A DNA stretch of 63,280 nt, filler included, from Licmophora abbreviata (lineage: Eukaryota): NCBI GenBank assembly GCA_900291995.1. It is 50 parts of 50 records of this genome, joined end to end, with 100 filler letters (N's around TTAATTAATTAA, not from the genome) between each part and the next. Parts side by side here need not be neighbours in the genome. Positions count along the whole stretch, not along the records: positions 14,383 to 15,575 come from OLMU01006676.1; 49 more parts are not named here. One strand, written 5' to 3'. The notes beneath the pieces were generated by a model. The model did not search any database. It saw only the letters and a program-made list of their open reading frames with translations, and had not been told where the DNA came from. Both the position numbers and the translations under genes were made by a program. Shown here piece by piece: positions 10,392 to 18,504 of the stretch. Each line of letters begins with the position of its first letter. Position 1 is the stretch's first letter.

Positions 10392-10491
10392 NNNNNNNNN
10401 NNNNNNNNNNNNNNNNNNNNNNNNNNNNNNNNNNNTTAATTAATTAANNNNNNNNNNNNNNNNNNNNNNNNNNNNNNNNNNNNNNNNNNNN

Positions 10492-11693
10492 TTTCTACAG
10501 TATACAGTCGAAGGCAGACGACACTCAACCCCACGACTTGTTACACGCACTAGGAACCGAGGCTTGAGCCATCTATTCTTTCGACAAGCTGACTCCTCCC
10601 TCGAACATCAAAATCATACTACGACACAAACAACGATGACACCAACCACGCGCCATCCAACATTGAAGCCAGGGATATTCAAGGCATCCACGTCCAAGCT
10701 TATCTCCACAATGCAACCCCGACCTCCCACGACCTTCAAACAACATATCAGGACACTACCAAGTCCCATTGCCAGATGGATACAAAGTTTTGATCTCATC
10801 CACCAAGACCAACTTGAGCAAATTCTACGAGCCAGACAACCTTTACTCTTAGCAACAGACGGGTCCAACTTGTTCCCAAACGCTTCGTTTGCATTTAACC
10901 TTGCCGACACCACAGGCAAGATACTGATCAGGGGCTTTGGCCCCGTGGACGGCGACGCAGCATACATGTCATCACTTAGACCAGAACTCTACGGCATCGG
11001 AAGCGGCTTGACATTTATCGAACAATACTGCAAATTTCATGAAATACCGGCCCACGAACTTCGCATCAAGAACTTATCTGACAGCAAAGCCGCCATACAA
11101 CGATCATCAACAGCAAACTCACAACTTCGAAGTATTTTCGAGCACTTGCATGAATTCCAACGCCCACGAACTACCAGTGTTTCGAAGTTCACGATGCCAG
11201 AAGAGGACGTAGTATGCGAGATACGAGAGACACTGCTCCGAATGCAACCTGATATCACATTTCAGTGGATAAAAAGCCACCAGGACGACTTAACCCCGGC
11301 ACATGCGATGTCAGTTGAAGCCCAACTCAACGTACTGGCTGACCATGATGCTGGACAATACAGGAAATACAATCAGATTGGACACAGAAAGACCCAGCCG
11401 GCTTTACACTTTCCCGGAGCCGTGGTGAATCTTCGCATCTCGCACCGAATCGCAACAACGAAGATTCCGGAGCAAATTCGTCAACACATACGCGGAGAAC
11501 ACTTGGGAACTTACATGCGAGAACGCTACGACTGGTCGGATACAACATGGAACTCCATCGATTGGAAAACTATCGGACAATGCTTCAAAAAGCTCCCGCT
11601 CCACGAACGAGTCAACACTGCGAAAATGATACACGGTTGGAGAAATACAGGAAAGCAACGACGCCGAATAGATCCCACTGCGACCGACCGATG
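10492..11693 (+). mobile_element. Non-LTR retrotransposon (LINE, Ambal-like) RNase H region
   Basis: LATDGS, GPVDG...SSLRPELYG, SDSKAAI, FQWIKSHQD, QLNVLADH, followed by W..IDW zinc-binding region. Confidence 0.8.
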
Positions 11694-11975
11694 NNNNNNN
11701 NNNNNNNNNNNNNNNNNNNNNNNNNNNNNNNNNNNNNTTAATTAATTAANNNNNNNNNNNNNNNNNNNNNNNNNNNNNNNNNNNNNNNNNNNNACGGGCT
11801 TCGACTTGTGCATAATTGAGTCGACTGAGTCAATCTCCGTGCCGCTTACAACGCTGCGATGATGGTACTGTACCATGGTGTTTCTTTTTGTTGCTCTACT
11901 GTAGCCATTTCTTGAAGCCGCTGCCCTTTCTCGGGTCCATGATTGTATTGCAAGTTCGTGTAGATTGACGTAACG

Positions 11976-12988: not shown

Positions 12989-13548
12989 NNNNNNNNNNNN
13001 NNNNNNNNNNNNNNNNNNNNNNNNNNNNNNNNTTAATTAATTAANNNNNNNNNNNNNNNNNNNNNNNNNNNNNNNNNNNNNNNNNNNNGACGCAACTACG
13101 TCGTGCGGGCGCGTGGGAAGGAGCTCTCGGCTGGCATCAGTCATCGATCCATGCATCGCCGACCTCTCCTCTATCAGTGTAAAGGGTGCCTTACATCGAG
13201 CTGCTCCCCCGAACCGTAGGCACGGAGCATGGATACATAGGTTATATCAAACATCGCCCCGTTCCCATTGAGCGTCCAATATATGTATCCTAGACTAGTC
13301 TAGTATTGGCCTCCGGATGATCTCGCCAAGGTCTGGTCCATCCCATGTTCGAGGTCGCGCACATTACCGAGTCGCCACACGCGCGCGGCGAAGCGAACCA
13401 CATTCACACTGACACAAAGCAGCGGCGACGAGCTGCGAGGCGACACGAATGGGAGTAGCGACTCAACATCTGCCGTTTCTACTGCTTTCGACACCTTCTC
13501 GACTCCTCCTGACACTGCCTAGATCAGAGCTCCATACTACAAAGCCAA

Positions 13549-14282
13549 ATGGCGAATTCATACGGCTTTGATTTCCTCAAATCAGAGCACAATGTCGATG
13601 GCACGGATCGGGGCCCCGCCTTGGCACCCCAGGCACCGTCTGCCCCCTCCTCGCTGCTAACAGAATCGTCGATTCCTCCAGATGTATACGCCAAACCTGA
13701 TTTAGAAAAGCAATTTGACGTTCTACACTTTTTACAGGCCCATCGATCAACAGGATTCTTGGCACCGTCCATAATTTACCGTGCGACCGGAATCGACCTG
13801 TTGGACGATCGACATGGCAATGTCGTCAAGATGCTCGAAACTAACCCAAAAATCAAGGTCGAGCATGTCCCAGATCCAGAAAACCCATCGCTAAAGCTTG
13901 CAACTTATGCGTATCAAGCCAAATTTCATAACGTTCGAGATCGTGCGTCCCTTCTTGCGCAGATCAATCGTTGTCTCAACGGGGTGGCAATGCGTGATCT
14001 GAACGACGCGTACGATGGCGTCGAAGACGACTTACAGGCGTTGATTACTGCCGGAGATATCATTGCTGTGTCCAATACTGAAGACAAGGACAAAATCATG
14101 TTTCCTCGCGGAGAAGCGTTTCTAGTAGAAATGGACGGCATCGTGACGATACGCAAGAAAAAGGTGGAGAGTTTCGTTCCCGTGACCACGCCTGCACCGC
14201 CATCTGCAGCGATCGGTGCGAAGCCGGCATCAACGTCAGAAAGACCACTAACAGATGATGAAGTTGTGGCGGCCGCGATACG
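13549..14282 (+). CDS. Transcription initiation factor IIE beta subunit (TFA2/GTF2E2-like), partial
   Basis: L..NPKI, YAYQAKFHNVRD..SLL, DLNDAYDGV..DL..L...G.I, KIMFP winged-helix pattern. Confidence 0.75.
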
Positions 14283-14503
14283 NNNNNNNNNNNNNNNNNN
14301 NNNNNNNNNNNNNNNNNNNNNNNNNNTTAATTAATTAANNNNNNNNNNNNNNNNNNNNNNNNNNNNNNNNNNNNNNNNNNNNCGCGCGTCGAAACGACAA
14401 AAATAGATCCAAACTTTTGGATCCAAAACTACGCATCGAATGAATCATCGCGATTCGATAGAAGAGGAGAGCCACTTGAGTTTCTCCATTCGAGGCGTCT
14501 GCC

Positions 14504-15419
14504 ATGACTTCTGCTCAAGCCCTGCCCAAGATATATACGGTAGATCAGATTACAGCAGTTGTCGAAACAGAAAACTTTGAGAAAAGCCTCATTGCCGCCA
14601 TTCAACAAGGATTCCGTTGCTACTCCCACGGCCGCTTCAATGCGTGTCCTATTCAGACCATGGGCGCTCCACCTATGGCTCCCTTTGTTCAATCCCCAAA
14701 CTACGCCGCTCAGACATGTGTTAAGTCTGGATATCTGACAGGAGCATCTCATTATGTCCTCAAAGTCGCCAGCGGAGGACATCCTCTCCCGAACTCAGGG
14801 CTCATGCAGATCTATTCTCAATGCACCGGAAAGCTCGAACTTAAAGATGTAGAGATGCTACTAAGGATCTCCGTACTTTACTTAACTGATGGCGTGCAGA
14901 CGAGATGTCCAGTCTCGTTAGCACTAAGTCGGAAGTCCCAGGGAGTTAGTTACCCTTAGGAGAGTACAGAAGTCCAGGATTGGTTGACACAATACTGACT
15001 ATCGAAATTATAACAACTAAAGTGAACTACATCTGCACAAACTCCAGACTATTGACTGCGAACTGCCGGAAGCAGATCGGTCACAACGCATGGAACGACC
15101 ACAAGGGAATGAGATAAATAAGGACTTTCCTTGACCCTGTTGGTAACTTCTAACAAATGCTTCCGCTTTGCCAACGGAAGTAAACATTTGCATAAGTGAT
15201 AGGTTCACCCGAAATACTTGAGGGTTCACTCGAAAGACTCGAGGGAATGTGATCATAGGGGGCGTCTTGAGATTTGTGCTAAGTAGATCAAGCATCACAA
15301 GCCGCGCGACGCGTGGACGGAACGCGCACGGACGGAAGAGGACATGTCTGATGGACAGGCAGACTTGACTCACTCTCGAGGCGCTCTTGTTGGACGAAGG
15401 AATCTTGACGGAGCTTCGT
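14504..15419 (+). CDS. Ornithine cyclodeaminase/mu-crystallin family protein, N-terminal part, interrupted at 14839-15379 and again after 15419
   Basis: CVKSGY...VLKVASG...NSGLMQIYSQCTGKLE continues after the insert as ALLLDEGILTELR, matching the OCD motif TG...ALL.D...LT..RTAA. Confidence 0.85.
14839..15374. mobile_element. 536-bp insertion without terminal repeats, flanked by 5-bp direct repeat CTCGA (14834-14838 and 15375-15379)
   Basis: Removing the insert plus one CTCGA restores AAG CTC GAG GCG (KLEA) in the OCD frame. Confidence 0.7.
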
Positions 15420-15675
15420 TCAGTAGTCTACGAGATTCGACCCGGACTTGGGGCGCGCCACACTACCCCTCCCACCCAGAGGATGGTCCATGAGGTTTCT
15501 CGTTTCGTGGAGCACGTCTATGGAAAGGCAACCGGAAAGAGTATATGCTTGGCAGCATTATTATACTGAAGCAGTNNNNNNNNNNNNNNNNNNNNNNNNN
15601 NNNNNNNNNNNNNNNNNNNTTAATTAATTAANNNNNNNNNNNNNNNNNNNNNNNNNNNNNNNNNNNNNNNNNNNN

Positions 15676-16960: not shown

Positions 16961-18046
16961 TTTAGTCACCTCCTCAAAGCGATCCTCGAACTGGGCCTCA
17001 TCCAGAGCTCCGTCGACCCCTGTCTCTTCTTTCGACACGATCTCGTCCTCGTCCTATATGTCGACGACGGCGGCATCGCCTCCCGACACTCAGGCATCGC
17101 CGACAAGTTTATCGCCGACCTCAAAGCCAAAGGATTTGACCTCACCAAGGAAGGCAGCTTCGCCGACTTCCTCGGCATCAAATTCACTCAGCAGGATGCC
17201 CACGAGTACAAATTGACGCAGCGCGGCCTGATCGACAAAGTCATCGGAGCTGCCGGCCTCGAGAACTGTAAGCCGAATCTCCTGCCCACTACCCAGCTCG
17301 CCCTCGGCGCTGACGTCGATGGACCCGTGATGAACGAATCCTGGAGCTATCCATCAATCGTCGGCATGCTGCTGTACCTGGCGGGAAATAGCCGCCCAGA
17401 CATCGCCTTCGCTGTCAGCCAGGTCTGCCGATTTACCTCCGCCCCTCGACAGAGTCACGCTACGGCCGTCAAGACCATCATCCGATACCTCGCCGGGACC
17501 CGTGATGAAGGAACCATCATCCGACCGACAGGAAGACTCAACCTCGACTTGTTCGTCGATGCTGATTTCTGCTCACTTCACGGTCGCGAGGATTCGCGTG
17601 ATGTCAACTCTGCGCGCTCGCGCACGGGATACATCATCCTTCTGAGCGGTGTACCCCTACTGTGGAAATCTCAACTCCAGACCCACATTTCCCTTTCTAC
17701 GCTTGAGGCTGAGTATTCGGCTCTATCCTATTCTTTGAAAACACTCATCCCTCTCAAACGCATCCTCCTTGAACTCGTCTCCGCTCTCAGCATCGATCAG
17801 GAAATCAGCTCTTCAGTTCAAGCCCGTGTCTTCGAAGACAATCAAGGAGCACTCACCCTCGCCTCCAACCACCGTGTCACCAACCGCACGAAGTACTTCC
17901 TCGTCAAGTGGCACTGGTTCTGGCAGCACTCCTCCGAATTTCTGCTTCTCAAAGTCGCCTCCGTCGACCAGCGTGCCGATTATCTCACCAAGGGCCTTCC
18001 CCGCGACGGCTTCGAGCACAATCGTCTCCTGGTGCAACGATGGTGA
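16961..18046 (+). mobile_element. Ty1/copia RT-RNase H, C-terminal end of pol
   Basis: DPCLF, LYVDDG, SRPDIAFAV, FVDADF, STLEAEY, FEDNQGA, ADYLTKGL. Confidence 0.93.
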
Positions 18047-18504
18047 CATGAGGCACCATCATTATATGTCGAGACCTTCCCGATCAAGACGTACATCGAG
18101 CCCCGCTCTTTGGAACTTGCTCACATGTTCAACAAGGTCTCTNNNNNNNNNNNNNNNNNNNNNNNNNNNNNNNNNNNNNNNNNNNNTTAATTAATTAANN
18201 NNNNNNNNNNNNNNNNNNNNNNNNNNNNNNNNNNNNNNNNNNAACAAGGCGCCCTTGTACAAAAAGTCACACTCACCTAGGTTCAGTTCCACGGTCACAT
18301 TCTCCTCGAAGTTTCGCGATTCTGAAAGTAGATTCAGCAGAGATCGTCGGGTCGAAAGTGTCGCTTCGAATCGACCCACATGGTCTGCAAACCACAAACG
18401 TTGCATGCGTTCATAACTTTGCCATTGTCGTTTGTCGTCGTTCGAAAATACGACTCCATTAGGGCTGATGATTAAGATCAGTTCCACCCTCAGTTCCTAT
18501 CAGT

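What the first reader, a model, noticed from the sequence alone, without database searches (positions are those of the whole stretch)
14834..15380. OCD gene split by a structured insert with 5-bp duplication and no terminal repeats, possibly introner-like
Seen: KLE|ALLLDEG is interrupted by 536 bp flanked by CTCGA, with no TIR, TG..CA ends or poly-A. The insert has several hairpins (GAGAT/ATCTC, ACGAGA/TCTCGT, CAAATG-CTTCCG/CGGAAG-CATTTG), a GTGCAGA/TCTGCAC long-range pair and a 21-bp tandem pair near 15202-15243. Splicing from GT at 14849 to the AG at 15379-15380 (at the end of the duplication, preceded by TTGAC and pyrimidines) would restore the frame, adding only LKD; both sites are weak (GTAGAG, GAG). 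The antisense strand also reads GTGAGT...TAAG at the ends (15373-14840). Known: introners create introns by co-opting splice sites from target duplications. Inference: an unclassified mobile element, either intron-generating or simply knocking out one allele.
Basis: partly seen in the sequence, partly recalled or inferred. Interest (0 to 1): 0.7.

Follow-up and report, generated by a model that had tools for sequence, protein, structure and literature searches.

The report
Solo copia LTR with unusual ends
The insert is the leftover long terminal repeat of a diatom copia retrotransposon that landed in one copy of an ornithine cyclodeaminase gene; it was hard to recognise only because this group of elements starts and ends with AGT-type bases instead of the textbook TG...CA.

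Summary
The 536-bp insert and its CTCGA duplication are real, but it is not an unclassified element. It is a solo LTR of a Ty1/copia family, lying antisense to the OCD gene. On two contigs the same sequence follows a copia RNase H end and a polypurine tract. In two independent runs its other end abuts a half-tRNA-Met-type primer binding site. A second full solo copy has its own 5-bp duplication (4 of 5 bases match). The LTR ends are AGT...AGT. Among metagenome relatives 57 of 65 called starts are AGT/AAT and 27 of 35 called ends finish in T, so missing TG...CA is a trait of the group, as already noted for 3 of 26 diatom CoDi families. The intron reading is weak: the donor GT is in 2 of 5 copies, the acceptor G is an A on the intact-frame OCD contig, six frame-keeping pairs exist, no spliced joint was seen, and this gene copy breaks again 40 nt later. 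Most likely a dead allele. Whether an LTR-free allele exists is not proven.

The parts
14504..14838 (+). 5' half of an ornithine cyclodeaminase/mu-crystallin gene (ATG to ...KL)
   Evidence: 89 homologues carrying PF02423 in 88 rows, best 71% identity; single copy in the assembly
14834..14838 (+). target-site duplication, left copy (CTCGA)
14839..15370 (-). solo LTR of a Ty1/copia family; in element sense it starts AGTC (15370) and ends AAGT (14839)
   Evidence: start shared by 6 contigs, two of them directly behind RNase H and a polypurine tract; end shared by 4 integrated copies and followed by a PBS in runs X3 and X5
15371..15374 (-). 4 extra bases (AGTG) in front of the usual LTR start; the insert still begins AGT; probably a local duplication of the terminal motif (inference)
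   Evidence: absent from the 5 other starts; relative L056 has a repeated AGTCG start
15202..15243 (.). 21-nt tandem pair inside the LTR, polymorphic among copies
   Evidence: one unit is left out in a contig of run X7
15375..15379 (+). target-site duplication, right copy (CTCGA)
15380..15419 (+). 40 nt of OCD coding sequence after the insert (..ALLLDEGILTELR)
   Evidence: 15377-15419 is 42/43 identical to the start of contig G000:C4771, which carries the rest of OCD in an open frame
15420..15575 (.). second break: unrelated sequence running to the contig end, origin unknown
   Evidence: no other match in the assembly or in 170 held loci; C4771 and a contig of run X5 continue as OCD here
16961..18142 (+). 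separate contig in the same window: RT-RNase H and 3' UTR of the same copia family (not physically linked to the finding)
   Evidence: RVT_2 hit; 91-92% DNA identity to L008 and L017, which run on into the PPT

Best explanation
A Ty1/copia retrotransposon integrated antisense into the OCD coding sequence, making a 5-bp duplication; recombination between its two LTRs later removed the internal part and left one LTR. Shown: LTR identity, both boundaries, PPT and PBS junctions, TSD, multi-copy state. Inferred: the recombination step, half-tRNA-Met priming, and integration of untrimmed ends whose 3' base is T rather than the A of CA (integrated ends coincide with the PPT and PBS borders). The allele is most likely null: unspliced, the frame stops at 14957-14959 after about 150 codons, and the gene breaks again at 15420. 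The working OCD is probably the haplotype represented by C4771.
For: PPT-LTR junctions on L004 and L008, and L017 ends exactly at that PPT; PPT loose ends in runs X1, X5 and PBS loose ends in X3, X5; nine contigs carry LTR pieces, six scored at 75-92% identity to the insert; L005 is a second full solo copy with TTTGA/TATGA flanks; 12 contigs hold the family's RT-RNase H DNA; the closest-type relatives L052 and L053 have the same PPT and the same PBS variant; cover in run X7 is confined to the insert at depth about 540.
Against: No full-length element of this family is assembled and no 5' LTR-PBS junction was found in the own assembly (8 matches, control 24, none next to this LTR); the PBS junction rests on two loose contig ends from other samples. 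The 4 extra bases are unexplained. No run bridges either OCD-LTR junction. C4771 starts inside the TSD, so it cannot show that its haplotype lacks the LTR.
Confidence: 0.86

Rival explanations
1. Same solo LTR, but spliced out as a new intron (GT 14849 to AG 15380, adding LKD), i.e. a solo-LTR introner; the second break would then have to be another intron or an assembly error.
For: The pair keeps the frame with the smallest net change of six candidates. Copia solo LTRs that act as introns are reported in Panicum virgatum (PMC12130899, passages). If C4771 also carried the LTR the insertion would be on both haplotypes.
Against: Donor GT in 2 of 5 copies examined. The acceptor needs G at 15380; C4771 has A there, and on that haplotype the closest frame-keeping pairs replace conserved residues (25 pairs within 25 codons). 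Six pairs on this haplotype show that a frame-keeping pair is easy to get. Of five other integrated copies none clearly sits in an intact long frame running up to the junction. No joint listed in four runs (contigs only, weak).
Confidence: 0.06
2. The contig is partly misassembled: the LTR insertion is real but the tail after 15419, or the pairing of haplotypes, is an artefact, and the insertion may be homozygous.
For: Fragmented assembly (7734 contigs); the tail matches nothing; contigs here often break at this LTR (L002, L003, L017, L027), which would also explain why C4771 starts at the TSD.
Against: An exact 5-bp duplication with colinear OCD codons on both sides is not what a chimeric join gives; C4771 has an intact 236-codon frame, expected if it is the functional allele.
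Confidence: 0.06
3. An unclassified, non-LTR or DNA-type element (MITE, SINE, Crypton-like) that happens to sit next to copia sequence.
For: No TG..CA and no terminal inverted repeat in this family.
Against: The same start follows the PPT at the same base on two contigs and in two runs, the same end precedes a PBS in two runs, and 33 relatives show PPT-LTR and LTR-PBS borders of the same type.
Confidence: 0.02

Closest known systems
Ty1/copia solo LTRs; diatom CoDi elements (Maumus et al. 2009, PMC2806351)
   Same: Copia-type RT (RVT_2), LTR length inside the reported 153-844 bp range, 5-bp TSD, insertion apparently on one haplotype as for Blackbeard; TG/CA is reported missing in CoDi3.2, 4.2 and 4.3.
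   Different: I could not place this family in a numbered CoDi group, nor see which ends those three families have (supplement unreadable).
Half-tRNA-primed copias (Hemivirus type: Ty5, copia, 1731, Osser; PMC1181622 passages)
   Same: PBS directly behind the LTR, complementary to the anticodon arm of a tRNA-Met(CAT), not to a CCA end.
   Different: This family's PBS has a bulge relative to that arm; ends are not TG..CA; the tRNA seen in the assembly looks organellar and the nuclear initiator tRNA was not found.
Non-TGCA plant copias (Tos17, AtRE1, TARE1; LTR_retriever preprint 10.1101/137141)
   Same: Copia LTRs with altered terminal dinucleotides, reported to favour genes.
   Different: That survey calls the first T invariable; here the first base is A in 61 of 65 called starts.
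Zam/errantivirus LTRs (AGTTA...TAAYT; PMC3601003 Table 3)
   Same: AGT start and T end.
   Different: Those are insect Ty3/gypsy elements; here the RT is copia-type, so the likeness would be convergent (inference).
Solo-LTR introners of Panicum virgatum (PMC12130899)
   Same: Copia solo LTR inside coding sequence with a TSD.
   Different: There the copies are reported as functional introns; here splice sites are not conserved and splicing is not shown.

Membership tests
Ty1/copia solo LTR | Sequence follows RNase H and a polypurine tract in an element | tested here: met
   L004, L008; loose ends in X1, X5
Ty1/copia solo LTR | Other end is followed by a primer binding site | tested here: met
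   loose ends at 14839 in X3 and X5; same PBS variant in L052, L053; not found in the own assembly
Ty1/copia solo LTR | Single full LTR between 4-6-bp target duplications | tested here: met
   window 5/5 with 4 extra bases inside; L005 4/5
Ty1/copia solo LTR | Parent has copia RT and integrase before RT | tested here: inconclusive
   RVT_2 met; order met in relative P0095; own integrase and RT pieces lie on separate contigs
Canonical LTR | TG...CA termini | tested here: not met
   AGT...AGT in this family; TG..CA in 2 of 33 relatives with both ends called
CoDi3.2 / 4.2 / 4.3 | RT groups with these named families | not tested
   no labelled CoDi sequences were among my hits; supplement unreadable
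Hemivirus-type priming | PBS complementary to the anticodon arm of initiator tRNA-Met | tested here: inconclusive
   the commonest PBS of relatives matches the arm of a tRNA-Met(CAT) in L166; this family's variant has a bulge; priming itself not testable
Introner | Copies are spliced out of mRNA | not testable with these tools
   no RNA holder on record; no joints in contigs of four runs
Introner | Splice sites conserved across copies or reliably co-opted from the TSD | tested here: not met
   donor GT 2 of 5 copies; acceptor G differs on C4771
Introner | Many similar copies at intron positions of intact genes | tested here: not met
   5 other integrated copies, none clearly in an intact long frame; fragmented assembly limits this

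The most novel reading that the evidence does not exclude
A large, widespread aquatic copia group (diatom hosts where named) has replaced TG...CA by AG(T)...(AC)T ends, with a relaxed right end (ACT, AGT, ATT, GAT, CTT), primes on half a tRNA-Met, and integrates untrimmed ends whose 3' base is T. Its integrase would not need the CA that is near-universal elsewhere, and TG..CA-based finders would systematically miss these elements and their solo LTRs in diatom genomes. Novel only if this has not been spelled out for CoDi3.2/4.2/4.3 or in repeat databases I could not see.
Probability: 0.4. Interest if true: 0.5.

Novelty: new member of a known kind. Interest (0 to 1): 0.27.

Why it matters
The locus itself is ordinary: a retrotransposon scar in a probably dead allele of a metabolic gene. 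The useful by-product is the end motif: a copia group whose LTRs start with A and mostly end in T is a practical blind spot for annotation and a natural test of how strictly copia integrases need the terminal CA. If RNA showed splicing, it would be a solo-LTR introner in a diatom, a kind so far seen by me only in a grass report.

Tried and rejected
Pfam on the two OCD halves in the window: no hit; identity came from homologues and from C4771. Rfam on the contig: 0 matches at E<=1. Viral contigs: no relative of the RT. L027's flank as a 5' internal region: host genes, no gag. Own 5' LTR-PBS junction and nuclear initiator tRNA by pattern: not found, matches below control; 27 of 29 tRNA loci were scanned with ARAGORN. 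Neighbour contigs C4770 and C4772 do not overlap the finding's contig. Origin of 15420-15575: no match. No RNA holder listed. Parts without cover were not used as evidence. Antisense GTGAGT...TAAG: irrelevant to OCD, and would leave 7 extra bases in a sense insertion (arithmetic). A full-length-tRNA PBS (TGG... using the LTR's last T) was rejected because that T is kept in 4 of 4 integrated right ends and relatives show the GGTT... border. The careful tree did not finish; only the quick tree was read. Earlier scan notes: nothing by sequence or words. A possible gene at the L003 junction: no Pfam hit.

Full report
Setting. The window is a chain of about 1.2-kb contigs joined by N linkers; the finding lies on one contig, 14383-15575 = G000:C6676. 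The host is a diatom by inference from OCD and RT relatives named.

Observation. CTCGA at 14834-14838 and 15375-15379 flanks 536 bp. The gene is an ornithine cyclodeaminase: 89 homologues, best 71% identical; 88 of 89 span the break and all 88 are gap-free around it. The insert folds somewhat better than shuffles (z -2.7 and -3.0) and matches no Rfam family.

What the insert is. It has seven matches in the assembly including itself; add two more contigs. On L004 and L008 its minus-strand start AGTCAAG follows the stop of a copia RNase H, a 3' UTR and the purine tract GAGAGGGAG; L017 ends exactly at that tract. The RT is RVT_2, 12 contigs hold this RT-RNase H DNA, one of them in this window (16961-18142). 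Four public runs laid on the contig gave loose ends at 15371 that are the purine tract (X1, X5) and loose ends at 14839 that read GGTTGCTGAGCCC in element sense (X3, X5), a primer binding site; in X7 cover is confined to the insert at depth about 540. So both LTR borders are fixed independently and coincide with the insert's ends, except for 4 extra bases (AGTG) at the LTR start. L005 is a second complete solo copy with flanks TTTGA/TATGA. The insert is therefore a solo LTR, antisense to OCD.

Why it lacks TG...CA. Six starts read AGTCA and four integrated ends read AAGT. I fetched 79 metagenome loci of RT relatives (the best 80 of 538 confirmed). A purine tract was called in 65: the next bases are AGT 47, AAT 10, TGT 2, other 6. 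A primer site was called in 35: the preceding bases end in T in 27 (ACT 13) and in A in 8. Of 33 with both, AG..CT 11, AG..CA 5, AG..GT 4, AA..AT 4, TG..CA 2, other 7. These are pattern calls, some rows are near-identical and a few calls are doubtful (L054, L114, L078, L081), so they are not independent counts. In a quick tree of 77 rows the two TG..CA rows lie outside a 72-row group (SH-aLRT 98), but AG-start rows lie outside too and the root is only the midpoint, so no direction of change is claimed. The commonest primer site, GGTTA(T/C)GAGCCC, is complementary to the anticodon arm of a tRNA-Met(CAT) in the assembly, the half-tRNA priming described for Ty5, copia and Osser (PMC1181622, passages). 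Since integrated ends coincide with the PPT and PBS borders, the ends seem to be joined untrimmed with T as the 3' base (inference).

Is it an intron? GT 14849 to AG 15380 keeps the frame, but so do five other GT/GC-AG pairs. The donor GT is present in 2 of 5 copies (L001, L027; not L002, L005, L006). The acceptor G is an A on contig C4771, which shares 42 of 43 bases with 15377-15419 and carries the remaining 236 codons of OCD intact. The window's copy leaves the OCD frame again at 15420, where C4771 and a contig of run X5 continue normally; the tail matches nothing held. None of five other integrated copies clearly sits in an intact long frame. No joint appeared in four runs, which is weak because they are contigs and none bridges an OCD-LTR junction. 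Against my reading: C4771 begins inside the duplication, so it could also be the right flank of the same insertion on the other haplotype, and the 5' half of OCD is assembled only once. An empty allele is likely, not shown.

Comparison with what is known. Maumus 2009 (PMC2806351; passages and section 18; supplement unreadable) reports TG/CA in 23 of 26 diatom CoDi families, missing in CoDi3.2, 4.2 and 4.3, without the motif in the text I saw. The LTR_retriever preprint (10.1101/137141; passages) lists seven non-canonical plant motifs and calls the first T invariable. PMC3601003 (passages) gives AGTTA...TAAYT for Zam-type gypsy LTRs. PMC12130899 (passages) reports copia solo LTRs as introns in Panicum virgatum. 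Passages of PMC8147415, PMC5445492, PMC2774666 and 10.1101/2025.10.24.684338 added no CoDi end motifs. Seven searches showed no description of AG..CT-ended diatom copias, but the library lacks subscription papers and repeat databases, and the unread supplement may hold it.

Verdict. A solo LTR of a diatom copia family in a probably dead OCD allele: new member of a known kind, interest 0.27. The group-wide A...T ends with half-tRNA priming are the part worth a follow-up (probability of being both real and undescribed about 0.4; interest 0.5). Solo-LTR introner: about 0.06.

Noticed in passing
window 15420-15575: Second, unexplained break in the same OCD copy 40 nt after the LTR; could be another insertion, a deletion or an assembly error; matches nothing held.
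   Followed up: partly
run X7 (organism B) on window 14839-15371: A 510-nt contig about 93% like the LTR at depth about 540 with no cover of the OCD flanks at 80% likeness: a high-copy sister family in another sample; horizontal transfer is possible but untested.
   Followed up: no
L054:7086-7125 and L114:901-940: In two relatives a PBS-like motif lies only 16 nt behind the polypurine tract; either an LTR-internal look-alike or a very short or collapsed LTR.
   Followed up: no
L059, L062, L065, L079, L085, L102: A subgroup of relatives has 1.4-1.6 kb between the RNase H stop and the called purine tract, room for an extra 3' ORF.
   Followed up: no
L003:1000-1500: The host flank of another LTR copy reads like a decayed gene with a stop and frame changes (resemblance to carotenoid oxygenases is from recall; Pfam gave no hit).
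   Followed up: partly
L010 (G000:C989) and several tRNA loci: A bacterial-looking OCD and organellar or bacterial tRNA/tmRNA contigs suggest the assembly includes plastid and bacterial DNA.
   Followed up: no
window 10444-11745: Open frame that looks like the RNase H-like region of a non-LTR retroelement (by eye, not tested).
   Followed up: no
window 13513-14283: TFIIE beta-like gene fragment (TFA2 winged-helix hit) on the preceding, unlinked contig.
   Followed up: no
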